NCBI GenBank assembly: GCA_003165595.1
Contig: PLWQ01000025.1
Coordinates: 107,832 to 171,831 of the forward strand
Direction of reading: 5' to 3'
DNA length: 64,000 nucleotides
Source: Fibrobacterota bacterium
GTDB taxonomy: Bacteria > Fibrobacterota > Chitinivibrionia > Chitinivibrionales > FEN-1185
Part shown: piece by piece, positions 1 to 63,241 of the stretch
Layout: each line of letters opens with the position of its first letter
Numbering within the stretch: the stretch's first letter is position 1
Position numbers and translations under genes: made by a program
The notes under the pieces: generated by a model
Databases searched by the model: none
What the model was told of the DNA's origin: nothing
What the model saw: the letters and a program-made list of their open reading frames with translations, nothing else

Positions 1-2
1 GC

Positions 3-33031: not shown

Positions 33032-33190
33032 ATCGGTTCCTCTGAAAAGTGAAGTTGTGTTTCCTCTGCCGGCACCGCACGTGCCGACAACCGTACGTTC
33101 TATGACTCTCGTTCGACGTTGCTTCAAGCTATACCCGGCAGCCGTGATGCACGGCCCGTCCTTTTGCCGAACAGCTCCGGGAAACCGTGT

Positions 33191-34051: not shown

Positions 34052-34155
34052 GGTGGTTCCTTACGTTGTAATCGGAACCCCGCTCACCCCAAAAGGGCGC
34101 ACCGGACAATGTGCCCCGTGGCGCTCCCTTAGGGAGATGGAGGGGAAAGTACTGT

Positions 34156-35112: not shown

Positions 35113-35384
35113 GAATGGTCCTTGGTTGCGGAATTGTGCGGATATACCGGATGGCGCATCGGCGCCCGCCGTTCGCTTCTGAAACACGCACCTATTATTA
35201 TATGTATCGGATATGCAAAAAAAAACATTAAAATGCCGCGCGTTGCCGGAGGTTGCGGCGTCGTACTCGTGGTCTGCTCGTTGGAGAAAATAGTATACTT
35301 GAGGTGCGCGCCCGGCTTTGGCGGCAAGCGCTTTCGACGCCGATTGCGTGTTTGCCCGACTTGATTTATGAGCTACGGCTCCTT

Positions 35385-45770: not shown

Positions 45771-45773
45771 CGA

Positions 45774-47252
45774 TTGGCTCTGATTGCGGAGTGTGGTGTG
45801 GATTCCATCGTTCTCGTAAATCCGCCCATGAGTCTAACCGAGCGATACGGCCGGCTGGCGGCTGCCGGGAGCACAATGCCCCCGCTGGCGCTTTGCTCGC
45901 TTGCCGCCGTGTGCCGCAACAACGGGTTTGCTGTTTCAATCATTGACGCGGCCTGCGGCGAGCTATCGCACGAACAGGTTGTCGACGCGCTGGTTTCCCG
46001 CAAGCCCCGGTATGTCGGCATAACTGCCATGACCTGCGGGATACACAGCGCGGCCAGAATTGCCAATTTGATAAAACGGAAACGTCCGGATATTCTGACC
46101 CTCATCGGCGGCCCCCATGTGACCGCGTTGCCGGCGGAAACGATGAGGATTTTTCCCGAGTTCGATGTGGGATGCATCGGAGAGGGGGAAGAAACGCTTG
46201 TCGATTATATGCGGGCCATGCAAGCCGGCTCTTCTGGTGACAATGTCTCTGGCCTTGTGCATAGAAAGGGCGGCGCAATTTGCCTGTCCGGCGCAAGGCC
46301 GTTTATTGAAGACTTGAATTCTCTTCCGTTCCCAGCCTGGGATCTCCTTGAAGGATTTCCCGACAGATATGTTCCTGCCGCAATTCGATGCAGGAGATTG
46401 CCTGCAAGCCACCTGGTCACGTCGCGCGGCTGTCCCATGAAATGCACGTTCTGCGATCGCTCGGTATTCGGGAACCGGTACCGGCTTTTCAGTGTTGAAT
46501 ATACGTTTGAAATGATAAAGACCTTGGTGAATACGTACAATGTGCGGGACATACTTTTCGAAGACGATAGTTTTACGCTTCACAAAGAAAGGGTGCTTGC
46601 TCTCTGCGAATTGATAGGAAAGAACAATCTGCGGTTCTCTTGGTCGTGCCTCGGACGCGTCGATTCAATAGATGCGACTCTCTTAAAGATCATGAGGCGG
46701 GCGGGTTGCTGGCAAATCGGATTCGGCATCGAAAGCGGAAACGCGGGGATTCTTGACAGTGTGCATAAAAGCATCGATCTCGATCGCATCCGTGAAGCGC
46801 TTGCGGTTACCAGGCGGGCTCGCATACTCACCAAGGGGTTCTTTGTGCTCGGGCTGCCGCACGAAACTCCCGACAGCATAAGGGAAACGATACGATTTGC
46901 CAAAACGGTGGCTCTCAACGACATCAGCGTGTCCTTCTGCACGCCATTTCCCGGCACTGTTCTGGGCGAACACGCGCGTGAGTCGGGCGATGTCGACCCG
47001 GACTGGAACAAGATGAATCTGATGAATGCCGTGTTTGTGCCCAAGGGCTTCACGAAAAAGCAACTGGAAGAATTTCATGCCGCGTTTTTTAGGCAGTTCT
47101 ATTTCCGGCCGGGGATCATTCTGGATTACGTGTTCAGGTGCATTCGGAATCCAGGGTTGCTGTGGCGAATCCTTTGGATTCTGCCGTCGTTCTTCCACCC
47201 GGCATTCCGTAAGGCTGCTCGCTCCCGACCTCTCGTATCCACGCACCGTTAA
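45774..47252 (+). CDS. B12-binding-domain radical SAM enzyme
   Basis: N-terminal cobalamin-binding-like Rossmann region ('YVGITAMTCGIHSAARIANLIKRKRPDILTLIGGPHVTALP'). 'SRGCPMKCTFCD' is a CX3CX2C cluster. TTG start in the track; GTG 45798 is an alternative. Confidence 0.8.
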   Translation: MALIAECGVDSIVLVNPPMSLTERYGRLAAAGSTMPPLALCSLAAVCRNNGFAVSIIDAACGELSHEQVVDALVSRKPRYVGITAMTCGIHSAARIANLIKRKRPDILTLIGGPHVTALPAETMRIFPEFDVGCIGEGEETLVDYMRAMQAGSSGDNVSGLVHRKGGAICLSGARPFIEDLNSLPFPAWDLLEGFPDRYVPAAIRCRRLPASHLVTSRGCPMKCTFCDRSVFGNRYRLFSVEYTFEMIKTLVNTYNVRDILFEDDSFTLHKERVLALCELIGKNNLRFSWSCLGRVDSIDATLLKIMRRAGCWQIGFGIESGNAGILDSVHKSIDLDRIREALAVTRRARILTKGFFVLGLPHETPDSIRETIRFAKTVALNDISVSFCTPFPGTVLGEHARESGDVDPDWNKMNLMNAVFVPKGFTKKQLEEFHAAFFRQFYFRPGIILDYVFRCIRNPGLLWRILWILPSFFHPAFRKAARSRPLVSTHR

Positions 47253-47692
47253 CGAGGCCGGGCCTCTTTTCCGTCGCTCGTTTCTGCTGCGCCGAATACC
47301 GCAGCTTTCATGGCTGCGTAGTTTATGGCGGCAGCCACGGCAGCCACAATAATATTCATGACAAAATAGTGGACATGGAGTTTCTGGACGCCGGTAAACA
47401 ACAGCGCATTTGCAATGGCCAGGATTGCCACCTGCAAAATGATGTAGCGTATGCCTTGTTTGACATGAGCCGTTGTGTAATTCTTGAAAACCAGATATTT
47501 GTTAATGGCATAGGAATACACGTAGGCCACTCCGCCCGCGATGTTGGAAGCGATCAGGTAGTTTACTTTAAATAATTCAACCAGGGCCAGCAACACGCCC
47601 CAGCACAGCACGGCGGTTGAGCAGCCGCCGATTCCGTATCGGACGATTTCCGGCATCGTTTTTTTGAAAGAAAAGTGTTTCGGCAACCGCAT
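47249..47692 (-). CDS. GtrA family membrane protein
   Basis: Four TM segments. 'RYGIGGCSTAVLCWGVLLALVE' and 'IAGGVAYVYSYAINKYLVFKN'. Lies 9 nt downstream of the GT2 gene. Confidence 0.8.
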   Translation of the reverse strand: MRLPKHFSFKKTMPEIVRYGIGGCSTAVLCWGVLLALVELFKVNYLIASNIAGGVAYVYSYAINKYLVFKNYTTAHVKQGIRYIILQVAILAIANALLFTGVQKLHVHYFVMNIIVAAVAAAINYAAMKAAVFGAAETSDGKEARPR

Positions 47693-47701
47693 TACAAGGC
47701 C

Positions 47702-48472
47702 CTATTTTAGGAGTCGGTTGAGAATGGAATATGCTACAAGTAGTTTGAGGTAATTGCAGTAGTGGACGGCAAAAGCAAGCGGGTGCGAACCTCGGTACTT
47801 TTTAGCGGCCAGTAGAGCGCGCGTTGCGGGAAAATTGCGAAAGGAACCGGTCATGGAGCCGCGGCTTACCCGGAAAGAGGCCAGGTATTCCTTGACAACA
47901 TACAGTTTGTGTTGCGATGCGATGCTTAACCATATCGCATACTCGGTCGTTGCATAGATGTCGAAGGGCCCCAGCTCCGACATAAGTGATGTCTTGAAGA
48001 AGACCGCCATGGCGCTTAAATAGCATTCAGTCAAGAGAAGATTGAAGCTGTGATGCCTAAGCAGAAAATTTTTGTACAAGGTAATCCATCGTCGTATTTC
48101 GTTGCCATCGTCATTGATAATCCCGCAATAGCCGGCAACCCAAGCGCAATCGACATGTTCCGAAAATGTCTTGAAGACCTGTTCAAATGCCCCGGGTTTG
48201 AAGCAGTCGTCCGCCGGCAGCATGACAATAATGTCGCCGGTGGCCATCCGACAACCTTTGTTGAAAGCGTCGCCCGTTCCTTTGTCCGGCTCGGAAATCC
48301 ATTTGAGATGCGGGTAGGATTTTAGAATCGAAACGGTGGCGTCAGTGGAGCCGCCATCAACCACGATATGTTCGTACGGTACATTGCCTTGAGCAAGAAC
48401 GCTTTCGATCGCCGTTCGAATATGTTTTTCCCCATTGAGGACAGGCGTAATTATGTTTATTTTATGTGTCAT
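47702..48472 (-). CDS. glycosyltransferase family 2
   Basis: 'INIITPVLNGEKHIRTAIESVLAQ', 'HIVVDGGSTDATVSIL', 'DIIVMLPADDCF'. Confidence 0.85.
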   Translation of the reverse strand: MTHKINIITPVLNGEKHIRTAIESVLAQGNVPYEHIVVDGGSTDATVSILKSYPHLKWISEPDKGTGDAFNKGCRMATGDIIVMLPADDCFKPGAFEQVFKTFSEHVDCAWVAGYCGIINDDGNEIRRWITLYKNFLLRHHSFNLLLTECYLSAMAVFFKTSLMSELGPFDIYATTEYAIWLSIASQHKLYVVKEYLASFRVSRGSMTGSFRNFPATRALLAAKKYRGSHPLAFAVHYCNYLKLLVAYSILNRLLK

Positions 48473-48621
48473 GGGATGATTGTAAATTAAGCTGTGCGCA
48501 CCGGAATACGAATCGGCGATTTTGCATTTGCGAAAAACCTCGCTTTACTCTGCCGGGCAGAAGCGCGTATCCTTGACTTTTCCAGATATAATTGTAGAAT
48601 ACGGGTGAAGGATTTTGGCAC

Positions 48622-49383
48622 ATGAAGAATCTGAGAGAAGCAATAGTAGTAGCTGCTGCAAGCGCTGGAGAGGGCCATATTCCGAGCGCCCTTTCCATTC
48701 TGGATATTTTATGGGTTCTGTACGACAAGGTTTTGAAGATAGATCCTTTGCATCCGACCAAACCGGATCGCGACAGGTTCGTACTCAGCAAGGGGCAGGG
48801 CGCTCTCGGGTTATATGTCGTTCTTGCCGCAAAAGGATTCTTCCAACACAAAGATCTGGACACCTTTGCGACTTTTAACAGCATCCTGGGCGGACATCCG
48901 GATCGGAACAAAATTCCCGGTGTTGAGGCTTCGACCGGTTCGCTGGGCCACGGCTTTCCGATTGCGGTCGGCATGGCTATGGGTTTGCGTGTGCAGCGGT
49001 CTTCCTCCCGCGTGTTTACGCTGATCGGTGACGGGGAGGCGAATGAAGGCAGCGTTTGGGAATCGGCGTTGCTGGCCGCGCACCATAAACTTTCAAATCT
49101 TTGCTGCATTATCGATTACAATCATTCGACGGATCGCGCGTTACTCGTTGGAAACATTGCCGCAAAGTTTGGCGCGTTTGATTGGGAATGCATTTCGGTA
49201 AACGGTCACGATCAAAACGAGTTGCTTGCGGCCTTGACCCGCGAGAGAACGAATCGACCTCTGGCGATTGTTGCCCGTACGGTAAAGGGATTCGGGTGCG
49301 CACGCATGGAAAACAATCCGGAATGGCATCACAAAGCGCCAACCCCAGAACAGCTACCGGCCCTTCTGGAGTCTCTTCGATGA
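48622..49383 (+). CDS. transketolase, N-terminal (ThDP pyrophosphate-binding) subunit
   Basis: 'GHIPSALSILDILWVLY', 'GSLGHGFPIAVGMA', 'IGDGEANEGSVWESALLAAHHKLSNLCCIIDYN'. Confidence 0.85.
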   Translation: MKNLREAIVVAAASAGEGHIPSALSILDILWVLYDKVLKIDPLHPTKPDRDRFVLSKGQGALGLYVVLAAKGFFQHKDLDTFATFNSILGGHPDRNKIPGVEASTGSLGHGFPIAVGMAMGLRVQRSSSRVFTLIGDGEANEGSVWESALLAAHHKLSNLCCIIDYNHSTDRALLVGNIAAKFGAFDWECISVNGHDQNELLAALTRERTNRPLAIVARTVKGFGCARMENNPEWHHKAPTPEQLPALLESLR

Positions 49384-50264
49384 ACATGCGCCAACAGATG
49401 GTATCAACGGTTGAAGGCGTTCTCCGGAGCGATGTCCGCACCATGCTTTTGCTGGGAGACATCGGTGTCTTTGGGTTCAGGAATGCGTTTGAGGCATTTC
49501 CCGAACGCGTGCTCAACATCGGCATTCTCGAACAGGCGACCATCGGCGTTGCGGCAGGGTTATCATTGTGCAACATGATTCCCATTGTTCATAGCATTGC
49601 TCCATTTCTCGTTGAACGCGCTTTCGAACAATTGAAAATTGACTTTGGCTATCAGAAGACCGGCGGCAACTTTATCAGCGTTGGAGCCTCGTACGATTAC
49701 GCAGCATTGGGGTGCACGCATCATTGTCCCGGGGATGTCGGCATTTTAAAAAATTGCCCGGGCATGGAAATTGTTGTTCCGGGCACCGCGTCGGAGTTCG
49801 ATACGCTGTTTCGACGGACGTACGCAAACGGATCGCCCACCTACTATCGCTTGAGCGAACGATCCAATGCAATGAGTTGCGATGTTTCCTTTGGAAAGGC
49901 CACGGTCATACGCAAAGGCGAGGGACTCACCGTTGTTGCGGTTGGACCCCTGCTCGATACGGTTCTTGAAGCCGGTAAGGATCTTGACATAACCATACTC
50001 TATTACACAACAGTAGCGCCCTTTGACGCCCAGACGCTCAAGGATAATGCGGGCTCATCTAAACTATTGTTGTGTGAACCATATTATAGCGGCGTATCGG
50101 CAGCCGACATACAAGCGGCGCTCTTTCCCGCTCCGGTCTCGATTGATTTCGCAGGAATTCCTTTCCGCTTTTTAACGCAATACGGCAGCTGCGCAGAGCA
50201 TGACGAGGCCCTCGGGCTAACGGCCGGCCGAATACGGTCACGCATGCAAAGGATGATGGCATGA
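49380..50264 (+). CDS. transketolase, C-terminal (pyrimidine-binding) subunit
   Basis: ATG 49380 overlaps the previous stop (ATGA). 'LLGDIGVFGF', 'NIGILEQATIGVAAGLSL', 'HCPGDVGILKNCPGMEIVVPG'. Confidence 0.85.
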   Translation: MNMRQQMVSTVEGVLRSDVRTMLLLGDIGVFGFRNAFEAFPERVLNIGILEQATIGVAAGLSLCNMIPIVHSIAPFLVERAFEQLKIDFGYQKTGGNFISVGASYDYAALGCTHHCPGDVGILKNCPGMEIVVPGTASEFDTLFRRTYANGSPTYYRLSERSNAMSCDVSFGKATVIRKGEGLTVVAVGPLLDTVLEAGKDLDITILYYTTVAPFDAQTLKDNAGSSKLLLCEPYYSGVSAADIQAALFPAPVSIDFAGIPFRFLTQYGSCAEHDEALGLTAGRIRSRMQRMMA

Positions 50265-51295
50265 ACCCGCTTCTCGACGCCATTGCCGCTGACGCCCGGG
50301 ACATTGTGTCAAAAATCGATTGTACCGGTTTACGCGGGAAGACCGTGCTCATAACCGGCGCCTCGGGACTAATCGGCGTCAATGTTCTTGCCTGTCTTCG
50401 CGAGTTGGCGCAGACGTTCCGAAACGAATGTTCCGTTGTGGCGACGATGCAAAGCGCGCCAGCCGATTTCATTGAGGCACTGTGCGATTTTCCCGCATGC
50501 ACCGTGATACGGGGAGATTTGACCGATCAATCGTTCTATGAATCCCTGCCTCGTGCGCATATCATCATCCATGCCGCAGGATACGGACAGCCCGCTTTGT
50601 TCACGCAGAATCCGGTTAAGACCCTGCAACTCAACACACAGTCGACATTCGCCCTGTTTTCGAAATTGCTCCCGTCCGGAAGATTCCTGTTTCTAAGCAC
50701 CAGCGAACTGTACAGTGGCTGCACGTCGCCACCGTTCGTCGAATCCCAAATCGGATCAACGGATGTTTCACATCCACGCGCCTGCTATATTGAGGGGAAA
50801 CGGTGCGGAGAGGCTATTGTCAATGCGTACCGGTCGCAAGGCGTAGCGGCAAAATCCGCGCGGCTGTGCCTGGCTTATGGTCCCGGAACTCGACCGGGAG
50901 ACAAACGAGTGCTTAACTCATTTATTCAAAGAGCGCTCGCGGGGCAAATTGACATGCTGGACAGCGGATCGGCCAGGCGAACCTATTGTTACGTAGCTGA
51001 CGCGGTTGAATTGCTTTGGAAAATTCTTCTGTTCGGAACCGATTGCGTCTACAACGTCGGGGGTGAATCCGACGTTACGATTTTGGAACTTGCCCGGAAA
51101 ATCGGCGGCTACCTGCACGTGCCGGTGAATGCGCCGCCAACGCCTCCGTTTTTGACCGATGCCCCACAGGACGTTCGCTTGGACATGTCCAAAACGAACC
51201 GGGAATTCGGAAAAACAGCCGGTGTGCCGTTCGATGTGGGCCTGGCCAGGACAATCGAATGGCAAAAAATATTGTACGGCGAGACTCTGCCATAA
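50261..51295 (+). CDS. NAD-dependent epimerase/dehydratase (UDP-glucuronate-decarboxylase-like extended SDR)
   Basis: ATGA overlap with the previous gene. 'VLITGASGLIGVNV' Rossmann motif. 'RACYIEGKRCGE' (YxxxK). 'KRVLNSFIQRALAG'. Confidence 0.8.
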   Translation: MNPLLDAIAADARDIVSKIDCTGLRGKTVLITGASGLIGVNVLACLRELAQTFRNECSVVATMQSAPADFIEALCDFPACTVIRGDLTDQSFYESLPRAHIIIHAAGYGQPALFTQNPVKTLQLNTQSTFALFSKLLPSGRFLFLSTSELYSGCTSPPFVESQIGSTDVSHPRACYIEGKRCGEAIVNAYRSQGVAAKSARLCLAYGPGTRPGDKRVLNSFIQRALAGQIDMLDSGSARRTYCYVADAVELLWKILLFGTDCVYNVGGESDVTILELARKIGGYLHVPVNAPPTPPFLTDAPQDVRLDMSKTNREFGKTAGVPFDVGLARTIEWQKILYGETLP

Positions 51296-51307
51296 GGGGA
51301 AGAGAAT

Positions 51308-52228
51308 ATGGGAATCACCATGGTTACCGGAGCGAACGGTCTCGTGGGTTATGCGTTGCGGCAAATGCACGAGCCGGATCTCGCCTATGTCTCTCGCGCC
51401 GACGCCGATCTTACGGATTTCAATCAGACGAAGGCGCTGTTCAACCGCGTTCAACCGGACCGCGTCATTCATTGCGCCGCCGAGGTGGGCGGCATCGGCG
51501 GGAATATGATTCATTCCGGCGAATACTTCCGGAATAATATCATGATTAATTTAAACGTTCTCGAATGCGCTCGGTTGGCGGGAGTAAAGAAGCTCATTTC
51601 CTTTATGTCAACATGCGTGTTCCCGGATTCATGCACGTATCCCCTTAATGAAAGGGACTTGCATAACGGACCGCCACATCCTTCAAATTTCGGTTATGCA
51701 TACGCAAAGCGGATGCTTGAAGTGCAGAGCAGTGCCTATAGAAAAGAATGGCAATGCGATTTTATCGTGGCGATTCCGACAAATATCTACGGCCCCAACG
51801 ACAATTGGAGCCTGCACGACGGTCACGTAATTCCCTCGCTTGTTCATCGGTGCTACCTTGCGAAGAAGAACGGCGAAGATCTTACGGTATGGGGCAGTGG
51901 AACTCCTCTGCGCGAATTCGTTTTTGCAAACGATATCGCTCAACTCGCTGCTTGGGCGCTCAACCGATACAGCGAGGATTCTCCTATAATCTTTACGTCG
52001 GGTATCGAAATTTCGATACGGGACGTGGTTGAAAATATCGCAGGCGCGCTTAACTTCAAAGGTTCGCTCATTTTTGATCCGTCAAAGCCCGACGGCCAGT
52101 TCCGCAAGCCCTCCGATCCGACCAAGCTTAAGAAATACCTTCCCGATTTTGAATTCACCGGCATTGAAAAGGGCATAACGAATACCGTTGAGTGGTTTGA
52201 AGCACATTACCCGAACGTGCGGATGTAA
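51308..52228 (+). CDS. fcl: GDP-L-fucose synthase-like 3,5-epimerase/4-reductase
   Basis: 'MVTGANGLVG', 'VIHCAAEVGGI', 'PSNFGYAYAKRMLEVQSSAY' (YxxxK), 'IPTNIYGPNDNW', 'VWGSGTPLREF', 'SKPDGQFRK'. Confidence 0.8.
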   Translation: MGITMVTGANGLVGYALRQMHEPDLAYVSRADADLTDFNQTKALFNRVQPDRVIHCAAEVGGIGGNMIHSGEYFRNNIMINLNVLECARLAGVKKLISFMSTCVFPDSCTYPLNERDLHNGPPHPSNFGYAYAKRMLEVQSSAYRKEWQCDFIVAIPTNIYGPNDNWSLHDGHVIPSLVHRCYLAKKNGEDLTVWGSGTPLREFVFANDIAQLAAWALNRYSEDSPIIFTSGIEISIRDVVENIAGALNFKGSLIFDPSKPDGQFRKPSDPTKLKKYLPDFEFTGIEKGITNTVEWFEAHYPNVRM

Positions 52229-52229
52229 A

Positions 52230-53195
52230 ATGCTGCCGAACGGGAAATTCGAAGACGGCGTGATCAAATCGCTAATCGCGGATGATTTTGAGGTACTTTT
52301 TAGGACCTCCTTGTCGGAATGTATACGAAGAAGAGTGTCCGAATTTGCATTAATGTATCGTGAAGTAACGGATGAGGAATACGAATCCTGTCTGCTGACC
52401 ATACTCCGGGCCATACACGACCCGGCTATTCCAAAAGCCGGTGCGCATCGCCAGGATAATTGGGAAAAGGGGTGGTTGGAAAATTTTCATGCTTGGGAGG
52501 CCACGGCAGGAGGCAAAGGTGCAAAAATTAATGCCATCCTTCCCCGTTATTTCGGCAAATACGGTTTCCTGAGAATCAACAGAACGCTTATCCGGCCCTT
52601 ATCCGATAACTTCGAATACTTTTCCCTGTGCCTCATTACCGATTGGCTCTTTGACGTTTATATGCGAAAAGCCGGATCGATTTACGAATTCGGCTGCGGA
52701 ACGGGATATCATCTGGTCCGCTTGAGAAACTACAATCCCACGGCGTCGCTTTTCGGTCTGGATTGGGCCCCGGCATCGCAAAAAATCATTTCGAGCCTGG
52801 CTTCGCAGGGATATGTGACGAATATGCAAGGACTGCGTTTCGACTATTTCAATCCGGATCAGAACATCCGTCTTGCGGCAGACTCAATTGTCTATACGGT
52901 AGCGTCGCTGGAGCAGTTGGGAAGAGATTTCAACCCGTTCCTGGCATATCTGTTGCGGAACAGACCGAGCCTCTGCGTGCATGTCGAGCCCATAGCGGAG
53001 TTACTTGACAAAAGCAACATCTTGGATTTTTTATCCATTGAATATTTCCAAAAACGTAATTATTTGACGGGATTTCTGGATCGATTGCATGCGCTAAAAG
53101 CGGAAGGGAAAATCGATATTGTCCTGGAACAACGCTCCTTTATCGGCAGTCTTCTCATAGACGGATACTCCATTGTTGTCTGGAAGCCTGTTTAA
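52230..53195 (+). CDS. class I SAM-dependent methyltransferase
   Basis: ATG 52230 lies 1 nt after the fcl stop. SAM motif I 'IYEFGCGTGYHLVRL'. 'LFGLDWA'. Confidence 0.75.
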   Translation: MLPNGKFEDGVIKSLIADDFEVLFRTSLSECIRRRVSEFALMYREVTDEEYESCLLTILRAIHDPAIPKAGAHRQDNWEKGWLENFHAWEATAGGKGAKINAILPRYFGKYGFLRINRTLIRPLSDNFEYFSLCLITDWLFDVYMRKAGSIYEFGCGTGYHLVRLRNYNPTASLFGLDWAPASQKIISSLASQGYVTNMQGLRFDYFNPDQNIRLAADSIVYTVASLEQLGRDFNPFLAYLLRNRPSLCVHVEPIAELLDKSNILDFLSIEYFQKRNYLTGFLDRLHALKAEGKIDIVLEQRSFIGSLLIDGYSIVVWKPV

Positions 53196-53321
53196 GCCGT
53201 AATCCTCGCTATTCTTGCCATTCGCTTTTATCTCTGCCGGCATAACGGTTTGCGCGACGAACATCCTTACAAGTCCAAAGGAAATTCCGAGTTCACTGTT
53301 AACGTTCGAAGCCTCCCCACG

Positions 53322-53981
53322 TTACGTTTTGGCAACCAGACATTGCGTGTCCCAAAGCTCAAGAATTTGCTCAGGTTTGTCGGCAAAAAAGTCGGCAAAC
53401 GCCTTTCTTACTCCCAAAAGGGTGCGGTAGTCGTGAGACAAGATGAACCCACCGCGAGTCATCCTTGGGTAGAAGAACCGAAGACAATCGAGCGTGCTCT
53501 TATAGATATCAACGTCAATATGCACCATCGAAAATGTACAATTCAGCACAGCATTTGCGGTTTCCGGGAAACACCCTTTATGGTAATAAACATTCTGGAA
53601 ACCCGAAAGAAACGCTTGAACCGCTTCGATGGAAGTATCGGCAAAATCTCCTTGACGATGTCTGTCAACGCGTTTGTCTACCATCGGCATGCCGGCAAAA
53701 GTATCGAAGAGATGCAGGTTCCTTTGCCCCTTAAACTCACAAATGATCCTTGCGCTTCCTCCTCTATAGACACCTACTTCCGCGAGGTCCCCCCTCAGCT
53801 TGCCTGATTGTTCTACCAATTTGTAGACGTTATGCATTTCCCGCATGGTCAAGGTCTTCCTGTTTCGAAGGCGGCGGTCTCCGAAACAAGCCAGAAACGC
53901 CTTGTCTTCACGTATAATGTGTTTGGAGACAATGGTATCAATTGATGTTCTCACCCTGTTTAGACATCTTCCAATGATCAT
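53322..53981 (-). CDS. TylF/MycF-family (macrocin-type) O-methyltransferase
   Basis: 'GDLAEVGVYRGGSARIICE', 'LFDTFAGMP', 'FSMVHIDVDIYKSTLDCLRFFYPRMTRGGFILSHDY'. Confidence 0.8.
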   Translation of the reverse strand: MIIGRCLNRVRTSIDTIVSKHIIREDKAFLACFGDRRLRNRKTLTMREMHNVYKLVEQSGKLRGDLAEVGVYRGGSARIICEFKGQRNLHLFDTFAGMPMVDKRVDRHRQGDFADTSIEAVQAFLSGFQNVYYHKGCFPETANAVLNCTFSMVHIDVDIYKSTLDCLRFFYPRMTRGGFILSHDYRTLLGVRKAFADFFADKPEQILELWDTQCLVAKT

Positions 53982-54115
53982 AAGAATCTTCCTTAGTAGT
54001 AAACGTCATGTGTTTGTTTGCGGGCATAACCCGCGAGGTTAATCAATAGGTGGAATCTTTTGCCCCACGGAAATTACTGCTCAACAGGCCTTGCAGGCAA
54101 TCGGCCGTTGCCTCG

Positions 54116-55732
54116 TCATTGTGTCGGCTTATTTGGAATGATTCGGTAAATCGAAAACGGCGGCACGGGAAATTCATTTGGGTGATTATAGTATTGCTGG
54201 TCCTTTTTTACCAAGACAAGCCTGAAGGCGCTTTCAAGTTTCGTTTGATAGGCATACGATCCTTCAATGCCCCGGTAATCGCAAAAGAACACCGCCTTGT
54301 TCTGCGTCAGCAGAAATGACAACTTATCAATAATTGTCGAGGTGGTATCATCCAGCCTTGACGGGGGAAAAAAGCAGGAATTTGAGTAATAATCAAGAGG
54401 AAAACACAGAAAGGCGTCGCACAGGACCACGGATTTCGGGGGAATGACCGATTCAATATCGTTCACAAGCCGATGTACCTGCGGCAGCCTGAAGTGGGCC
54501 GGCCTTGCACAGGGAACCGAACGGGTAATCTTCACAGCGAAAAAGGGAAGGAGAAAAACCGAAGCGAGTATCCACAATAGAACTGGACGATGTTGTATAG
54601 TCTCAACAAGAGTGTAGAGCCCGCAAACGAAAAGGAAAACCACTAACGGATAGACGGGCGCCAGGTAAATGTTATAGGTATAGGCAAAATCGAGGCACGG
54701 AATAAACCAGCAAACATAAAAGGAATATTCCAAGAGTAGGAATGGCGTCACCCACCACCGGACAAAGGCTGTTCTTCTTTGGTTCCACATTCCAATCGCT
54801 GCTATGGCAAGAAATGGCAGGGCCCACCACGCGGGGAACCCCTTGGGACTGTATATTATCGCCTGGGCCTTGCAGATAGCCACGAACGACGCCAAGGTAT
54901 TCCTGAAAAGATCGATATTCTTCCATTCGTAGGGCGGCTGCGCCGGAAGATACCAATGCCCGCTGCTGACATGATTCTGGATGAGAAACGGAGTGAAGAT
55001 AAGCATGGCGATTGCAATGCCGGCTATCCCGTTGGTGATGGCTGGCCTAACCCGCATATCCCTCAGATGGTGGCTATTAACGAAGAGTAAGATCATTGGC
55101 AAAAACAGAATTGCCTGAGGTATCTTCACCGTGGCTGTCAGGCATAAGAGACCAAAGGCCGCAAGCCAGTACACCTTGCGCTTCTTCTGGGAAGCGAGGA
55201 GTGCGAACAACGACGCAAGGGTCGTCAGGGCCGCGCAGGCAATGTCTCGCCGAAACGTCAACCGAAAGTTGATCACGGTCCCGTACGCCGCTATTGCCAG
55301 TACCGCGAGTATCCAGGCACTGCGCCGATCGCGGTCCTTAAAGAATACTCGCGTAGTGAAAAACAAACCGGTAATGATGCAAATGTCCCAAACAATCCGG
55401 GCAATCCATATTGCATTTTCACCGAACAGAGCAAGGAGCGGCGCCAGCAGCATTGCTATGCCTATTGATACAACGGAGACCTGTTGTCCTGCCGGATTCA
55501 AGACAAAAGGCGACAGGGTGTGTTTCATGTCGGGAAAATGCGACTTGAGAAGATCGTATACCGGATTGTCAATAATCATCTTCCCGTGGAGGAGCGCCTG
55601 CGCCGACCTGAGATAGATAACCATGTCGTCAACCATCGACGCATCGTAATTCAGGTAGGCGTTGACTGAGTAAACGCAGAGAAAGAGCAGGAGGAGGCCG
55701 AGGCAAATGAGGCGCGTCTTGTCTTTTACCAT
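54116..55732 (-). CDS. uncharacterised polytopic membrane protein (GT-C candidate)
   Basis: Start at MVKDKTRLICLG (ATG 55732). 'YDASMVDDMVIYLRSA' acidic loop after TM1. About 11 TM segments plus a soluble C-terminal domain. Confidence 0.6.
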   Translation of the reverse strand: MVKDKTRLICLGLLLLFLCVYSVNAYLNYDASMVDDMVIYLRSAQALLHGKMIIDNPVYDLLKSHFPDMKHTLSPFVLNPAGQQVSVVSIGIAMLLAPLLALFGENAIWIARIVWDICIITGLFFTTRVFFKDRDRRSAWILAVLAIAAYGTVINFRLTFRRDIACAALTTLASLFALLASQKKRKVYWLAAFGLLCLTATVKIPQAILFLPMILLFVNSHHLRDMRVRPAITNGIAGIAIAMLIFTPFLIQNHVSSGHWYLPAQPPYEWKNIDLFRNTLASFVAICKAQAIIYSPKGFPAWWALPFLAIAAIGMWNQRRTAFVRWWVTPFLLLEYSFYVCWFIPCLDFAYTYNIYLAPVYPLVVFLFVCGLYTLVETIQHRPVLLWILASVFLLPFFAVKITRSVPCARPAHFRLPQVHRLVNDIESVIPPKSVVLCDAFLCFPLDYYSNSCFFPPSRLDDTTSTIIDKLSFLLTQNKAVFFCDYRGIEGSYAYQTKLESAFRLVLVKKDQQYYNHPNEFPVPPFSIYRIIPNKPTQ

Positions 55733-55969
55733 GTCGCTTTGAGTTTCCTGGCGCTCACAATATGTATGCACCGTGAAGAATCTGGAGCCGGCGCGGAGCC
55801 GCGTGCCGCATCATTAAAATAAGTATATGACTCTTTTTACGCTGAGTCAATTACCCTGTCTTTATTATGGGCCCGTTGATTGTTTTGCTATTATGCGGCC
55901 GAAAAGATATTATTTAAGTTGGTAAACGACATGCCCTAAGAGCTCAAGAAGGGACCGCTCCCCAATACC

Positions 55970-56680
55970 ATGAATTCGCTCGTCCTTATTCCGGCATTCA
56001 ATGAGGAAAAAAACCTGCCTTCGGTTATTGCCGAGGTAAGGGCCAGCCTGCCGGATTTCGATATCGTTGTCGTAAACGACGGCTCCAGAGACCGAACCGA
56101 AGAACTTGCTCGTACCGCCGGAAGTGTGGTTATTTCTCATCCTGTCAATGTTGGATATGGGGCGGCGGTCCAGACGGGATTCAAATACGCCTGCAAAAAG
56201 GGCTATGCCGTTGTCGTGCTCATGGACGCCGATGGGCAGCACGATGCAAAGGATGCGCAACAGCTTGTAACTGTGCTTAAAGATCATTCATTGGACATGG
56301 TCATTGGCTCCAGGTTTGCGATAAAGACCGGCTATAAGACGACGTTCGCCAGGATAGTCGGCAGAAACCTTTTTTCGCTCATAACCTATTTGATAACCCA
56401 TAAGAGATTTCTGGACATCTCCTCGGGCTTTCGGGCGATCAATGGACGGGCGGTCGCATTTCTTTCAAGAAATTATCCTGTTGATTTTCCGGACGCCGAG
56501 GTACTCGTCATGATGCTCCTGAATGGATTCAAGATCGCAGAGGTCCCGGCGACTTTTAGATCGCGCACAACAGGCCAATCGATGTTTTCGCTGCCGAAGA
56601 AAATCTATTATCCGTTCAAAGGCCTGCTGGCAATCGTCATCGTCGTAATGCGGGAGATCTTCAAAGAGAAGGAGAAATAG
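55970..56680 (+). CDS. glycosyltransferase family 2, polyprenyl-phosphate glycosyltransferase type (GtrB/ArnC/DPM1-like)
   Basis: 'LVLIPAFNEEKNLPSVIAEV', 'VVVNDGSRDRTEELA', 'VVLMDADGQHD', and a C-terminal TM/amphipathic segment. Confidence 0.85.
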   Translation: MNSLVLIPAFNEEKNLPSVIAEVRASLPDFDIVVVNDGSRDRTEELARTAGSVVISHPVNVGYGAAVQTGFKYACKKGYAVVVLMDADGQHDAKDAQQLVTVLKDHSLDMVIGSRFAIKTGYKTTFARIVGRNLFSLITYLITHKRFLDISSGFRAINGRAVAFLSRNYPVDFPDAEVLVMMLLNGFKIAEVPATFRSRTTGQSMFSLPKKIYYPFKGLLAIVIVVMREIFKEKEK

Positions 56681-56681
56681 C

Positions 56682-57041
56682 ATGTCACTCAGGGGCCAAG
56701 CATTTGTCCTAATGATTTCCATTCTGGTAATTCTCTTTGTGCTTAATGCCCTGCGAAAAAGGAGAATTAACGAAGAATATTGCCTGTGGTGGATTTTTAT
56801 CATGATTGCAACGGATGTCCTCGTCTTGAACCAGCGCCTGCTTTCAAGAATCACGCATCTAATTGGAGCGCTCGTTCCCATATCAACGCTCACGCTTTTT
56901 GCGCTTATTCTCATGCTTGCGATTCTGATATATTTCTCGATGAAGATCTCCGTTCTCACAAACCAGGTAAGGGAACTCATTCAATTTGCTGCGCTGCAGA
57001 AAAAGGACATTGAGGAGTTGCGTCCAAAGGCTCACCTATAG
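56682..57041 (+). CDS. DUF2304-family small membrane protein
   Basis: AAGGAGAAA upstream of ATG 56682. Three TM segments. 'LRKRRINEEYCLWWIFIM'. Classic position directly after a GtrB-like GT2. Confidence 0.7.
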   Translation: MSLRGQAFVLMISILVILFVLNALRKRRINEEYCLWWIFIMIATDVLVLNQRLLSRITHLIGALVPISTLTLFALILMLAILIYFSMKISVLTNQVRELIQFAALQKKDIEELRPKAHL

Positions 57042-57069
57042 GCAACGTAGCGTCATACCCGGCCATCTT

Positions 57070-58683
57070 ATGAACACATCTGCTTTCAAACCATATCGCC
57101 CGGTGCTCTTCTTCCTTATCGTTCTCGCCATCGCCTGCGCCATTCGCATCCACCTTCTCCCCGTGCCGCTGGAACGGGACGAAGGAGAATATGCCTACTC
57201 CGGTCAACTGATTCTTCAGGGAATTCCTCCGTTTTCACAGTCCTATAACATGAAGATGCCGGGGATTTATGTTGCCTATGCGGCTATCCTCACCTGTTTC
57301 GGCCAAACTACAACCGGAATACATTTCGGTCTTCTTCTTATTAACATTTTGTCTTCGCTTGCCATGTTCCTGCTTGGACGCCGCCTGTACAATCCGCTTG
57401 TTGGTTGTGCTTCGGGTTCGGCTTTTGCCGTCATGACGCTTTGCTCGTCGGTCCTCGGGCTATCGGCAAATGCGGAACATTTTGTGGTCCTTTTTGTTCT
57501 GCTGGGATGCCTTTCGCTTCTCGAAACTCTCGATAAAGAACGTAGTCTTTTCGCTTTTTTGGCCGGTTTGTCATTTGGCGCCTGTGTCCTGATGAAACAG
57601 CATGGTGCGGCCTTTGCGCTTTTTGGATTTCTGTGTGTTCTGGCGGGGACATTTTCCGCGCACCGCGGCCGGATCAAGAAGCCGGCAATGTTCGCCTTGG
57701 TCTATTGCGCCGGGGTGCTTGTGCCGTTTTTCGTGGTTTGCCTGTGGCTGTGGTGTGCCGGCGTCTTTGGCAGTTTCTGGTTCTGGACGTTTACGTATGC
57801 CCGCGCCTATGTTACACAGATCCCGCTGTGGGTTGGCGCACATATCTTTTACGACCAAATGGGGCACATCACGGCATCGTCCCCGGCGTTGTGGTTGCTT
57901 GCGATGTTGGGTCTTGTGTCGTTGCTCTTCGATAGAAACTCAAAATGGAAAACCGGCGGCGTCTTGTTATTCCTGCTACTGTCGTTTGTTTCCATATGCC
58001 CGGGTTTTTACTTCCGGGAGCACTATTTCATTCTGGTGCTGCCCGTGGTTTCGCTGCTGTGCGGGAAAGGGGTTGCGTTTGCCCTTTCGCCTTTTGTAAA
58101 ACGTCCGGCATTGCTTTTTTCTCTCTTCTGCCTTGTTGTCGGCGGTGCGGTTGCGATTCCTCTTTTCGCGGAAAAGGCCATTCTTTTCGAGTCTGCGCCC
58201 ATGCGCGTTTCCAGGCTCATTTACGGACCCAATCCATTCCCCGAATCGTGCGTCATCGCGGATTCACTGAGGGCGTGGACATCTCCTGCAGACAAAATCG
58301 GAATCCTGGGTTCGGAGCCGCAGATTTTCTTCTATGCTCACCGGCGGTCTGCAAGCGGCTACATCTATACCTATGCCCTTATGGAAAAGCAGCCCTTCGC
58401 TTTGCATATGCAGGACGAAATGATACGGCAAATCGAAGCGGCCGCACCTCGCTATCTCGTATATGTTAATGTTGATGTGTCGTGGCTTGTGCGGCCGGAT
58501 TCTTACACCAGAATCTTTCAATGGTTCAACCAATATCAGCGGAGCATGTACGAAGTTGCCGGCGTTGCCGACATTGTCTCGGATCGCAAAACAGTGTTCG
58601 TGTGGGGGAATGAGGTTAAGAAATACGCCCCACAGTCATCAGCCTGGATTGCCGTCTTCAAGAGAAGAGTGGCTGGTCAATAG
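57070..58683 (+). CDS. ArnT-like GT-C glycosyltransferase
   Basis: ATG 57070. 'LLPVPLERDEGEYAYSGQLIL' acidic first loop. About 11 TM segments and a soluble C-terminal domain. Confidence 0.7.
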   Translation: MNTSAFKPYRPVLFFLIVLAIACAIRIHLLPVPLERDEGEYAYSGQLILQGIPPFSQSYNMKMPGIYVAYAAILTCFGQTTTGIHFGLLLINILSSLAMFLLGRRLYNPLVGCASGSAFAVMTLCSSVLGLSANAEHFVVLFVLLGCLSLLETLDKERSLFAFLAGLSFGACVLMKQHGAAFALFGFLCVLAGTFSAHRGRIKKPAMFALVYCAGVLVPFFVVCLWLWCAGVFGSFWFWTFTYARAYVTQIPLWVGAHIFYDQMGHITASSPALWLLAMLGLVSLLFDRNSKWKTGGVLLFLLLSFVSICPGFYFREHYFILVLPVVSLLCGKGVAFALSPFVKRPALLFSLFCLVVGGAVAIPLFAEKAILFESAPMRVSRLIYGPNPFPESCVIADSLRAWTSPADKIGILGSEPQIFFYAHRRSASGYIYTYALMEKQPFALHMQDEMIRQIEAAAPRYLVYVNVDVSWLVRPDSYTRIFQWFNQYQRSMYEVAGVADIVSDRKTVFVWGNEVKKYAPQSSAWIAVFKRRVAGQ

Positions 58684-58713
58684 GAAACAGGGATGTTTGA
58701 AAAGTTACATTCG

Positions 58714-61084: not shown

Positions 61085-61258
61085 AATCGTTTCTCTTTGG
61101 GGGAGTGAGCGTGCAACCTAAAGATACTAAGGGTGTTTCGTCGTGTCAATGGCAAACACACTCGTTGCCCCGTGGCGGTTCGCCGTTTCTCGACGGCCAG
61201 TTTAATCCAGCGGTTATTTGTAATTTCATCGCGCCGGCGACCTTGTATTTTATTTCGT

Positions 61259-62527: not shown

Positions 62528-62579
62528 AGTGATGCGCTAGAAAGTATTTTCTCATTGTCCACCTAGCATCTGGAGAACA

Positions 62580-63239: not shown

Positions 63240-63241
63240 CC

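What the first reader, a model, noticed from the sequence alone, without database searches (positions are those of the whole stretch)
47249..58683. Low-GC island of about 11 kb carrying the sugar-precursor operon and two lipid-carrier glycosylation modules
My hand counts of single 60-nt lines gave these values. Inside the island: 43% GC (51541-51600), 45% (53521-53580) and 37% (56701-56760). Outside it: 67% (28861-28920) and 62% (45001-45060). The low-GC stretch covers GtrA, GT2, the split transketolase, the SDR, fcl, two methyltransferases, a GT-C candidate, and the GT2-DUF2304-ArnT-like set. This suggests that this part of the glycan locus was acquired horizontally and grafted onto a higher-GC resident locus. 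The boundaries are only approximate.
Basis: seen in the sequence. Interest (0 to 1): 0.55.

Follow-up and report, generated by a model that had tools for sequence, protein, structure and literature searches.

The report
Variable surface-glycan cassette, weak GC dip
The "low-GC island" is only a shallow 4-point GC dip, but comparison with related uncultured Fibrobacterota shows it overlaps a real swap-in/swap-out sugar-decoration gene cassette whose true edges differ from those proposed, an ordinary pattern for surface-glycan loci.

Summary
The stretch 47,249-58,683 is 50.4% GC against 54.8% outside. GC-only segmentation puts no break at either boundary. Tetranucleotide signature and codon usage are host-like, and GC3 does not differ from the adjacent genes. 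All gene identifications hold except the "second methyltransferase", which has no significant match.

Comparative data show real mosaicism, with different edges:
- Against a sister population (~93% nt identity in the conserved frame), homology stops at ~43,390 and resumes at ~57,070. The 13.7 kb between is replaced by other glycan genes.
- Against more distant relatives, DUF7657-rSAM-GT2b-DUF2304 is collinear and as diverged as the frame, so it looks resident. The 8.7-kb block 47,253-55,969 (GtrA to GT-C) lies between rSAM and GT2b only in the window.
- GT-C2 (57,070-58,683) is conserved frame. GT2b-DUF2304, the lowest-GC part, is resident.

So 47,249 is a real junction and 58,683 is not. GC does not track ancestry here. 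There are no mobility genes, tRNA or flanking repeats, and no close donor (best outside hits are 62-69%). This is an O-antigen-like variable cassette encoding two polyprenyl-phosphate/GT-C glycosylation modules and a split-transketolase sugar operon. It is a new member of a known kind, of modest interest.

The parts
43386..57067 (.). Replaceable glycan cassette, defined against the sister population (13.7 kb, 50.8% GC)
   Evidence: By blastn the sister aligns with 40,565-43,385 at 87.6% and with 57,068-64,000 at 93.3%. Between them only 54,141-55,914 (71%) and 48,045-48,453 (66%) align. Junction alignments are, GC.
43665..45770 (+). DUF7657/DUF7654 large membrane protein (backbone gene; the sister has DUF2142 at this position)
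   Evidence: Pfam E = 1.9e-106. It is 70% identical to L146 and 63% to L147/L148, in the same position after PMT_2 and the DUF4177-like gene. The sister has no homologue.
45828..47252 (+). B12-binding radical SAM enzyme (backbone gene). Its stop codon overlaps the GtrA stop by 4 bp.
   Evidence: Pfam. NCBIfam gives class-B rSAM hits, all below cut-off. It is 63-71% identical to L146, L147, L015 and L116. Homology runs to within a few codons of the stop.
47253..55969 (.). Lineage-specific 8.7-kb block (nine genes, 50.4% GC) lying between rSAM and GT2b. It is an indel relative to L147, L148, L015 and L116.
   Evidence: rSAM is immediately followed by GT2b-DUF2304 in L015, L116, L147 and L148. 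Homology resumes at the GT2b ATG.
47249..47692 (-). GtrA/DPMS-type small membrane protein
   Evidence: Pfam PF04138, E = 1.6e-17. In haplotype L134 this domain is fused to GT2. It is 52% identical to the sister's copy.
47702..48472 (-). GT2 glycosyltransferase, probable polyprenyl-phosphate sugar synthase acting with GtrA
   Evidence: Pfam PF00535. Weak match to PHROG GtrB-like, 2.6e-9. GT2-GtrA fusion in L134. It is 57% identical to the sister's copy.
48622..53195 (+). Five-gene sugar-precursor operon: TK_N (48,622-49,383), TK_C (49,380-50,264), SDR (50,261-51,295), fcl-like SDR (51,308-52,228) and an unknown 321-aa protein (52,230-53,195)
   Evidence: Pfam. PDB 6yak, the N-terminal chain of a split transketolase, matches at E = 6e-68. 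The GDP-L-fucose synthase model scores 230 bits against a 500-bit cut-off. The same five genes occur in the same order in L141/142, L143/144 and L145 at 44-76%. The 321-aa protein has only sub-threshold methyltransferase-like PDB hits.
53322..53981 (-). TylF-type O-methyltransferase
   Evidence: Pfam PF05711, E = 5e-23.
54116..55732 (-). GT-C glycosyltransferase (PMT_2), partner of the GtrA/GT2 pair
   Evidence: Pfam PF13231. It is 72% aa and 71% nt identical to the sister's copy.
55970..57041 (+). GT2b (55,970-56,680; GacI/PpgS-like) and DUF2304 (56,682-57,041; GacJ/Rv3632-like). Resident backbone, and the lowest-GC genes.
   Evidence: Pfam. The PpgS model scores 125 bits against a 370-bit cut-off. 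PHROG GtrB-like, 1.6e-25. These genes are 65-78% identical to L015, L116 and L147, but GT2b is only 32% identical to the sister's copy. DUF2304 is 43-48% GC in all lineages.
57070..58683 (+). GT-C2 (PMT_2/ArnT-like), part of the conserved frame and not of any acquired unit
   Evidence: It is 93-94% identical to the sister and 57-62% to L015, L054, L057, L058 and L116. The convergent junction with hyp233/ABC2/ABC is conserved. Identity to the sister jumps to 0.95 within the first ~50 nt of the gene.
51501..58810 (.). The actual GC trough (about 48-50%). It matches neither evolutionary unit.
   Evidence: The four-letter segmentation gives 51,501-57,090 at 48.3%. The best GC splits fall at 51,500 and 58,810.
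40670..43390 (-). Conserved left frame next to the cassette: PMT_2 (41,104-42,750) and a DUF4177-like gene (43,118-43,390)
   Evidence: These are 92% and 98% aa identical to the sister, and 66-71% and 91-93% to L146/L147.
35190..40670 (.). Second diverged patch: GT-C-TPR, TPR protein and two prepilin-type genes
   Evidence: Only 39-72% aa identical to the sister, between frame blocks at 92-98%.

Best explanation
The region is the variable core of a surface-glycan (glycosylation) locus of an uncultured Fibrobacterota bacterium. It is organised like an O-antigen or capsule locus.

Layout. Conserved frame genes bracket a cassette that differs between related lineages. The frame is GT1 to hyp343, PMT_2 and the DUF4177-like gene on the left, and GT-C2, hyp233, ABC2, ABC-ATPase, a polysaccharide deacetylase and M50 on the right. 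Two layers are visible.
1. Against a sister population at ~93% nt identity, everything from ~43,390 to ~57,070 has been exchanged, with breakpoints sharp to tens of bases.
2. Within the window's cassette, DUF7657-rSAM and GT2b-DUF2304 form an old, vertically inherited backbone. An 8.7-kb block (47,253-55,969) sits between rSAM and GT2b. This position also carries other gene sets in other relatives.

Composition. The GC dip of about 4 points belongs to the whole variable region. It recurs in other haplotypes and includes resident genes. Part of it reflects amino-acid composition (GC1 and GC2, membrane proteins). It is not a marker of which genes were acquired.

Function (inferred).
- The split transketolase, the two SDRs, the unknown 321-aa protein and the TylF methyltransferase modify a common nucleotide sugar. 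A plausible route is a 4-keto-6-deoxy intermediate that receives a ThDP-dependent two-carbon transfer, then epimerisation/reduction and methylation.
- GT2 with GtrA loads a sugar onto polyprenyl phosphate, and GT-C transfers it to an acceptor outside the cytoplasmic membrane.
- GT2b with DUF2304 and GT-C2 form a second module of the same logic, like GacI-GacJ-GacL.

Shown: composition statistics, gene families, synteny, identity discontinuities and junctions. Inferred: polarity of the 8.7-kb indel, the chemistry, the acceptor, and diversifying selection as the driver.
For: Composition.

Mosaic against the sister population:
- nucleotide blocks of 90.5, 87.6 and 93.3% identity with unalignable DNA between them
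- frame proteins 92-98% identical, cassette proteins absent or 27-72%
- sharp junctions with no decay of identity toward them
- sister cassette content is DUF2142, NTP-transferase, GHMP kinase, SDRs, an isomerase, aldo-keto reductases, a TK pair, an E1 alpha/beta pair, GtrA', GT2', FkbM, GT-C', GT2b' and DUF2304'
- a third haplotype, L134

Resident backbone: L147/L148 are collinear from GT-C-TPR to DUF2304, with every gene at 52-91% identity (backbone genes 63-75%), like the frame genes. L015 and L116 have rSAM-GT2b-DUF2304 beside GT-C2.

Indel junctions.

Cassette GC below frame GC: also seen in the sister, L134, L015 and L054.

Not an assembly artefact: independent assemblies L006 and L007 match at 99.995-100% across 37,249-57,692, and 15 contigs carry the same left junction.

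Functional analogies: DUF2304 = GacJ/Rv3632, which stimulates GacI/PpgS, with the GT-C enzymes GacL/Rv3779 as transferases (bioRxiv 10.1101/180810; PMC9671496). GT2-GtrA fusion. Low GC is typical of O-antigen clusters (PMC3715488).
Against: - Polarity of the 8.7-kb indel is unresolved. The relatives with the tight rSAM-GT2b junction (L147, L015, L116) form one clade, so a single loss there is as parsimonious as a single gain here.
- Genome-wide composition is unknown. Only 64 kb plus fragments were available, so the 'host baseline' is estimated.
- No Wzx/Wzy/Wzz-type processing genes lie in the cassette, so the analogy with O-antigen loci concerns architecture and not mechanism.
- The acceptor and the sugar are unknown.
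- The promoter-like scan shows no enrichment (16 sites against 15.5 expected).
- Assignment to Fibrobacterota rests on the record title of the best GTDB hit at 62-80% aa identity.
Confidence: 0.75

Rival explanations
1. One reading: one discrete 11.4-kb low-GC island (47,249-58,683), recently acquired from a lower-GC donor and grafted onto a higher-GC resident locus.
For: - It is the lowest-GC 11.4-kb stretch of the window.
- A weak GC step lies near 58.8 kb.
- 47,249 is a real synteny junction.
- The closest outside copies of the transketolase operon sit in genomes of 39-45% GC.
Against: - There is no GC step at 47,249 and no 99% segmentation break at either edge.
- Tetranucleotide signature and codon usage are host-like.
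- GT-C2 and GT2b-DUF2304, a quarter of the claimed island and its lowest-GC part, are resident or conserved.
- The adjacent resident genes are equally low in GC.
- The best outside homologues are only 62-69% identical.
- There are no integrase, transposase, tRNA or flanking repeats.
Confidence: 0.08
2. No transfer at all: the locus is vertically inherited, and the GC dip and low identity to relatives reflect fast divergence of surface genes plus membrane-protein amino-acid composition.
For: - The GC deficit against the right frame is largest at GC1 (-4.5 points), with -2.7 at GC3.
- DUF2304 is low-GC in every lineage.
- Signature and codon usage are host-like.
- GT-C, GT2 and GtrA do have diverged homologues in the sister (72, 57 and 52%).
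Against: - Gene content is not homologous. The sister has DUF2142, NTP-transferase, GHMP kinase, aldo-keto reductases and E1 alpha/beta where the window has DUF7657, rSAM, hyp321 and TylF.
- Identity changes from about 0.4 to 0.95 within ~50 nt, which indicates recombination breakpoints and not rate variation.
- GT2b is 65-66% identical to distant relatives but only 32% to the near sister.
- The five-gene operon is shared as a unit with other phyla.
Confidence: 0.08
3. A prophage- or mobile-element-borne serotype-conversion cassette, like the gtrABC genes of enterobacterial temperate phages.
For: The GtrA + GT2 + GT-C logic is the same, and GT2b matches the PHROG 'GtrB-like O-antigen conversion' family at 1.6e-25.
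Against: - No phage structural, integrase, recombinase or transposase genes were found among the ~55 window genes scanned with Pfam.
- No attachment-site-like repeats or tRNA lie at the edges.
- GtrA, GT-C, DUF7657, rSAM and GT-C2 have no PHROG match.
- The PHROG-matching gene GT2b belongs to the resident backbone.
Confidence: 0.03
4. An assembly or binning chimera that joins contigs of two organisms.
For: The source is a metagenome-assembled sequence, and two related populations co-occur in the same sample series (L054, L055 and L138 come from one metagenome).
Against: Independent JGI, Logan and ENA assemblies reproduce the window across 37,249-57,692 at 99.995-100% identity, and 15 contigs carry the same left junction. 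Proteins on both sides of 57,068 lie on the same contigs of 195,985 and 201,637 bp.
Confidence: 0.02

Closest known systems
O-antigen / capsule-type variable polysaccharide gene clusters (e.g. the Salmonella enterica rfb region)
   Same: Conserved flanking genes bracket a central block of sugar-precursor, glycosyltransferase and methyltransferase genes that differs between close relatives. The recombination breakpoints are sharp, GC is lower than in the surroundings, and the cluster is a mosaic of segments with different histories (PMC3715488).
   Different: - The GC depression is about 4 points here. In Salmonella the clusters are 28-37% against a genome of 51-52% (PMC3715488).
- No Wzx/Wzy/Wzz or initiating phosphoglycosyltransferase lies in the cassette.
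- The transferases are GT-C enzymes that use polyprenyl-monophosphate sugars.
- The acceptor is unknown, and the organism is an uncultured Fibrobacterota.
GacI-GacJ-GacL (Streptococcus pyogenes group A carbohydrate) and PpgS-Rv3632-Rv3779 (mycobacterial arabinogalactan GalN modification)
   Same: A GT2 polyprenyl-phosphate sugar synthase is immediately followed by a DUF2304 small membrane protein, with a GT-C transferase alongside: GT2b-DUF2304-GT-C2 at 55,970-58,683. In the characterised systems DUF2304 is the GacJ/Rv3632 family, which binds and stimulates the synthase (10.1101/180810; PMC9671496).
   Different: The match to the PpgS NCBIfam model is far below its cut-off (125 against 370 bits), so the sugar specificity is unknown. 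The host is diderm. No dedicated flippase was identified for this module. No biochemistry exists.
GtrABC O-antigen glucosylation systems, and DPMS-type synthases with a GtrA-like membrane domain
   Same: GtrA-family protein + GT2 + polytopic transferase (47,249-48,472 with 54,116-55,732). A GT2-GtrA fusion in haplotype L134 mirrors the fused DPMS architecture that gives Pfam PF04138 its name.
   Different: There is no phage context. The GT2 matches GtrB-like models only weakly (2.6e-9). The transferase is PMT_2-type GT-C and not a GtrC family member.
Classical genomic islands (tRNA-associated, integrase-bearing, compositionally deviant)
   Same: Patchy presence among relatives, and accessory (surface-modification) gene content.
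   Different: No integrase, transposase, tRNA, direct repeats or deviant oligonucleotide signature.

Membership tests
Horizontally acquired genomic island, compositional definition | Base composition significantly different from the host, with breaks at the boundaries | tested here: not met
   No 99% GC-only segmentation break at 47,249 or 58,683. No step at 47,249, and only a marginal step at 58,810. GC3 does not differ from the adjacent genes.
Horizontally acquired genomic island, compositional definition | Deviant oligonucleotide signature or codon usage | tested here: not met
   Tetranucleotide r = 0.85-0.94 against a mean of 0.86. Scaled chi-square p = 0.85 against the frame. Only 64 kb of host sequence was available as reference.
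Horizontally acquired genomic island, compositional definition | Mobility hallmarks: integrase or transposase, tRNA target, flanking direct repeats | tested here: not met
   Pfam on the window genes. The only tRNA is tRNA-Asn at 24,142-24,217. Only chance-level short repeats were found.
Horizontally acquired genomic island, compositional definition | Presence/absence polymorphism among relatives at a conserved site | tested here: met
O-antigen/capsule-like hypervariable glycan locus | Conserved flanks with a non-homologous or highly diverged central region between close relatives | tested here: met
   Frame genes are 92-98% aa identical, cassette genes absent or 27-72%. Three haplotypes were seen: the window, L139/L135 and L134.
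O-antigen/capsule-like hypervariable glycan locus | The central region encodes nucleotide-sugar synthesis and glycosyltransferases | tested here: met
O-antigen/capsule-like hypervariable glycan locus | Wzx/Wzy- or ABC-dependent processing genes and an initiating transferase | tested here: inconclusive
   No Wzx, Wzy, Wzz or phosphoglycosyltransferase was found in 43-59 kb. An ABC-2 transporter pair lies next to the cassette at 59,385-61,084, but its substrate is unknown.
O-antigen/capsule-like hypervariable glycan locus | GC lower than the genome | tested here: met
   The effect is weak: 50.8% against 53-58% in the frames. It recurs in the sister, L134, L015 and L054, but not in L057.
GacI-GacJ-GacL / PpgS-Rv3632-Rv3779 type side-chain glycosylation module | GT2 polyprenyl-phosphate sugar synthase | tested here: inconclusive
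   Pfam GT2 match. The best NCBIfam hit is PpgS, but at 125 bits against a 370-bit cut-off. PHROG GtrB-like, 1.6e-25.
GacI-GacJ-GacL / PpgS-Rv3632-Rv3779 type side-chain glycosylation module | DUF2304 (GacJ-family) gene immediately downstream of the GT2 gene | tested here: met
   PF10066, E = 1.6e-18. The gene starts 2 nt after the GT2b stop. The pair is conserved in L015, L116, L147 and L148.
GacI-GacJ-GacL / PpgS-Rv3632-Rv3779 type side-chain glycosylation module | GT-C fold transferase in the same locus | tested here: met
   GT-C2 matches PMT_2 at E = 2.6e-9. The fold was not modelled.
GacI-GacJ-GacL / PpgS-Rv3632-Rv3779 type side-chain glycosylation module | Formation of a sugar-P-polyprenol and its transfer to a polymer | not testable with these tools
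   This needs biochemistry.
GtrABC serotype-conversion system | GtrA flippase-family protein with a GtrB-type GT2 | tested here: inconclusive
   GtrA is met. The GT2 matches GtrB-like models only weakly. The fusion in L134 supports a functional pair.
GtrABC serotype-conversion system | Carried by a temperate phage or prophage | tested here: not met
   No phage genes were found in the window.

The most novel reading that the evidence does not exclude
The conserved five-gene unit (split transketolase, two SDRs and an unknown ~320-aa protein), which recurs intact across phyla, would encode an undescribed ThDP-dependent pathway to a branched or chain-extended, methylated nucleotide sugar. In these Fibrobacterota the product would be delivered through a polyprenyl-phosphate carrier and GT-C enzymes onto the neighbouring, co-diversifying pilin-like proteins. 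The locus would then be a species-level 'glycotype switch' for a surface filament.
Probability: 0.15. Interest if true: 0.6.

Novelty: new member of a known kind. Interest (0 to 1): 0.3.

Why it matters
Method. A modest GC dip read from a few 60-nt lines neither delimits nor proves an acquired segment. Here the lowest-GC genes are resident, and a conserved frame gene was counted as foreign.

Biology. The locus is a clear example, in an uncultured Fibrobacterota lineage from peat/soil-type metagenomes, of cassette exchange at a surface-glycosylation locus. At least three haplotypes exist within ~93% nucleotide identity. This implies diversifying pressure on the cell surface, for example from phage or predators.

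It also flags an uncharacterised sugar operon that is conserved across phyla, and two polyprenyl-phosphate/GT-C modules, as experimental targets.

Tried and rejected
- GC-only entropy segmentation, block-shuffle tests, tetranucleotide usage deviation, scaled chi-square codon distance and GC1/2/3 comparisons. None supports a discrete compositional island at the stated edges.
- Searches for tRNA, flanking direct or inverted repeats and mobility genes found nothing relevant.
- Extending the sister contig leftwards through its TK_N protein reached only a third haplotype, L134, which ends after about 2 kb.
- The lookup of cluster member P0136 found no gene on record. P0123 and P0136 proved to be the window's own population, at 99.7-99.9% identity.
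- The donor search with TK_N gave a flat plateau of 62-69% identity across phyla and no donor.
- The literature search for transketolase in nucleotide-sugar or O-antigen pathways found nothing specific.
- The promoter-like scan was not enriched above shuffles. Fibrobacterota promoters may not be sigma-70-like.
- Parsimony on the polarity of the 8.7-kb indel is uninformative, because the three lineages with the tight rSAM-GT2b junction form one clade.
- The reading of the gene at 52,230-53,195 as a methyltransferase was rejected as unsupported. It has no Pfam or NCBIfam hit, and its PDB hits have E = 0.08-0.27.
- Structure prediction and the exhaustive representative-protein search were not used. 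They would not bear on the island question.

Full report
OBSERVATION

The five hand counts are exact: 43.3, 45.0, 36.7, 66.7 and 61.7%. They are single 60-nt lines from a distribution with an SD of 8 points. As a whole, 47,249-58,683 is 50.4% GC against 54.8% for the rest of the window. It is the lowest 11.4-kb stretch (rank 0.6%), but other segments are about as low. 1-3,410 is 49.9%. 17,841-25,130 is 51.9% and holds Lon, KASIII and MarR. The lowest 5-kb window (52,001-57,000, 48.4%) is only z = -2.1.

Jensen-Shannon segmentation on the GC/AT alphabet at 99% places no boundary at 47,249 or 58,683. It treats 38,001-64,000 as one 51.9% segment. The four-letter version isolates 51,501-57,090 at 48.3%. 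There is no step at 47,249 (52.5% against 51.0% in 3-kb flanks). A weak step lies at 58,810, with P = 0.037 against 60-nt-block shuffles and P = 0.23 against 1-kb-block shuffles.

GENES

- GtrA (47,249-47,692, minus strand)
- GT2 (47,702-48,472, minus strand)
- split transketolase (48,622-49,383 and 49,380-50,264; PDB 6yak, E = 6e-68)
- SDR (50,261-51,295)
- an fcl-like SDR (51,308-52,228; 230 bits against a 500-bit cut-off)
- TylF methyltransferase (53,322-53,981, minus strand)
- GT-C/PMT_2 (54,116-55,732, minus strand)
- GT2b (55,970-56,680)
- DUF2304 (56,682-57,041)
- GT-C2 (57,070-58,683)

The supposed second methyltransferase (52,230-53,195) has no Pfam or NCBIfam hit and only sub-threshold PDB similarity.

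Glycosylation genes extend well beyond the island, from 27,995 to 58,683. They include MT+GT2, GT1, GT2_5, two methyltransferases, GT-C-TPR, a TPR protein, PMT_2, DUF7657 and a B12-radical SAM enzyme.

CODON-LEVEL COMPOSITION

GC2 does differ (0.397 vs 0.453, p = 0.014). With corrected boundaries, cassette GC1/GC2/GC3 is 0.534/0.410/0.582. The right frame is 0.579/0.423/0.609 and the left frame 0.590/0.408/0.743. So the two conserved frames differ from each other far more than the cassette differs from its right-hand neighbour.

Codon-usage distance is not elevated (p = 0.85). Tetranucleotide usage of the island windows correlates with the rest of the window at r = 0.85-0.94, against a mean of 0.86. 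The only outlier is 18-26 kb. No tRNA, repeats or mobility genes mark the edges. rSAM and GtrA are convergent, and their stop codons overlap by 4 bp.

SOURCE AND RELATIVES

The sequence recurs in several environmental assemblies at 99.995-100% identity, so it is not a chimera. The closest species-representative genome is an uncultured Fibrobacterota MAG (L015), with frame proteins 62-80% identical.

A metagenome scan and cluster lookups recovered a sister population: L055/L139/L140 on the right side, L135-L138 on the left, and L134 as a further haplotype.

LAYER 1: REPLACEMENT AGAINST THE SISTER

By blastn the sister aligns with 30,690-35,990 at 90.5%, with 40,565-43,385 at 87.6% and with 57,068-64,000 at 93.3%. 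Between 43,385 and 57,068 only GT-C (71%) and a fragment of GT2 (66%) align.

Frame proteins are 92-98% identical. Among the cassette proteins, DUF7657, rSAM, hyp321, TylF and DUF2304 find no match in the sister loci. The others are 27-72% identical, with GT2b at only 32%. Pfam does find a DUF2304-family gene after the sister's GT2b'.

Identity jumps from about 0.4 to 0.95 within the first ~50 nt of GT-C2. On the left it ends at the start codon of the DUF4177-like gene (~43,390). It does not decay toward either junction.

In place of the window's cassette the sister carries DUF2142, an NTP-transferase, a GHMP kinase, SDRs, an isomerase, aldo-keto reductases, a TK pair, an E1 alpha/beta pair, GtrA', GT2', FkbM, GT-C', GT2b' and DUF2304'.

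A second diverged patch (35,190-40,670) holds GT-C-TPR, a TPR protein and two prepilin-type genes.

LAYER 2: AN 8.7-KB INDEL INSIDE A RESIDENT BACKBONE

In L147/L148 the order is GT-C-TPR, TPR, PMT_2, DUF4177-like, DUF7657, rSAM, GT2b, DUF2304. Every gene is 52-91% identical to the window's copy. The backbone genes DUF7657, rSAM, GT2b and DUF2304 are at 63-75%, like the frame genes GT-C-TPR and PMT_2 at 67-71%. L015 and L116 have rSAM-GT2b-DUF2304 at 65-78%, next to GT-C2.

So DUF7657-rSAM and GT2b-DUF2304 are an old backbone. The window alone has 47,253-55,969 (GtrA to GT-C) between rSAM and GT2b. rSAM homology runs to within a few codons of its stop. Homology resumes exactly at the GT2b ATG.

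L146 carries yet another gene set after rSAM, so this position is an indel hotspot. Polarity is not settled. L147, L015 and L116 form one clade, so a single gain here and a single loss there are equally parsimonious. I favour gain. The block has its own divergent intergenic regions and opposite-strand genes, and it interrupts an otherwise tightly spaced operon.

ORIGIN

TK_N has no homologue closer than 69% outside its own population, and the hits plateau at 62-69% across many phyla. The five-gene operon travels as a unit, with the same order and gene sizes, in three places. It lies beside a Wzx gene in L141/L142, beside pilin and T2SS genes in L143/L144, and beside flagellar genes in L145, a Pseudomonadota MAG. 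Identity is 44-76%, and all three hosts are 39-45% GC.

This shows ancient horizontal spread of the module. It does not identify a recent donor.

DUF7657 shows a graded series of lineage relatives at 81, 70, 63, 56 and 54%.

GC AGAINST ANCESTRY

The cassette is lower in GC than its frame in the window (50.8% against 52.9-58.0%), the sister (49.0-50.6% against 52.7-56.4%), L134, L015 and L054, but not in L057. DUF2304 is 43-48% GC in every lineage.

The GC trough (~51.5-58.8 kb) includes resident GT2b-DUF2304 and frame gene GT-C2, and it excludes the GtrA-SDR1 part of the indel. GC therefore does not track history here. For scale, Salmonella O-antigen clusters are 28-37% GC in genomes of 51-52% (PMC3715488).

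MECHANISM (INFERRED)

GT2b-DUF2304-GT-C2 matches the logic of GacI-GacJ-GacL and PpgS-Rv3632-Rv3779. In those systems a GT2 synthase makes a sugar-P-polyprenol, a DUF2304 partner stimulates the synthase, and a GT-C enzyme transfers the sugar outside the membrane (10.1101/180810; PMC9671496).

GT2+GtrA+GT-C is a second module of this kind. A GT2-GtrA fusion in L134 supports the idea that the two proteins act together.

The transketolase/SDR/methyltransferase genes probably tailor the donor sugar. The acceptor is unknown. The adjacent, co-diversifying pilin-like proteins are a speculative candidate.

VERDICT

A real exchangeable cassette and a real junction at 47,249 exist. The right boundary is wrong, a quarter of the 'island' is resident or frame, the neighbouring resident genes are not higher in GC, and composition gives no evidence of a foreign donor.

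This is a new member of a known kind, an O-antigen-like variable glycan cassette. Interest is modest.

Noticed in passing
window 35,190-40,670: A second hypervariable patch: GT-C-TPR, a 726-aa TPR protein and two prepilin-type (N_methyl) genes. These are only 39-72% identical to the sister population, although the genes on both sides are 92-98% identical. Pilin-like genes embedded among GT-C glycosyltransferases could be the glycosylation substrates.
   Followed up: partly
window 48,622-53,195; L141 340-4,921; L144 8,001-12,639; L145 8,001-13,355: A five-gene unit (TK_N, TK_C, SDR, fcl-like SDR, unknown ~320-aa protein) is conserved in order and gene size in unrelated genomic contexts and phyla at 44-76% identity. 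It looks like an uncharacterised nucleotide-sugar pathway.
   Followed up: partly
L134 5,050-6,264: A third haplotype encodes GT2 fused to a GtrA/DPMS transmembrane domain (404 aa). This Rosetta-stone fusion suggests that the separate GT2 (47,702-48,472) and GtrA (47,249-47,692) of the window act as one polyprenyl-phosphate sugar synthase.
   Followed up: no
window 18,000-26,000: This is the only tetranucleotide-signature outlier of the window (r = 0.69-0.77 against a mean of 0.86). It covers KASIII, MarR, Lon, a GYF-domain gene and tRNA-Asn (24,142-24,217). No cause was determined.
   Followed up: no
window 25,131-32,260 and ~38,000: The largest composition steps of the window are here and not at the island. 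A block at 59% GC (GC3 0.72-0.79) holds AIRC, Dus, PAC2, MT+GT2, GT1 and GT2_5, and the best overall GC split is at ~38,000.
   Followed up: partly
L135 1-9,270 and L139 1-9,903: The sister cassette has DUF2142 where the window has DUF7657. It carries both a split transketolase pair and an E1 alpha/beta pair, plus an NTP-transferase, a GHMP kinase and aldo-keto reductases. It probably makes a different and larger sugar.
   Followed up: partly
window 47,254-47,266: A GC-rich hairpin followed by a T-run (GAGGCCGGGCCTC TTTTCC) lies immediately after the rSAM stop codon, inside the 3' end of the convergent GtrA gene, exactly at the indel junction.
   Followed up: no
window 43,430-43,440 and L135 (reverse complement) ~9,400: A short motif (ACTATACAAT) is conserved with the sister inside otherwise unalignable DNA, just beyond the left breakpoint and upstream of the DUF4177-like gene. 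It may be a promoter element for that gene.
   Followed up: no
window 27,776-29,725 (minus) against 27,995-29,719 (plus): The longest ORF here (649 aa, minus strand, no Pfam hit) is a shadow ORF. The gene called in independent assemblies is the plus-strand 574-aa methyltransferase+GT2 fusion.
   Followed up: yes
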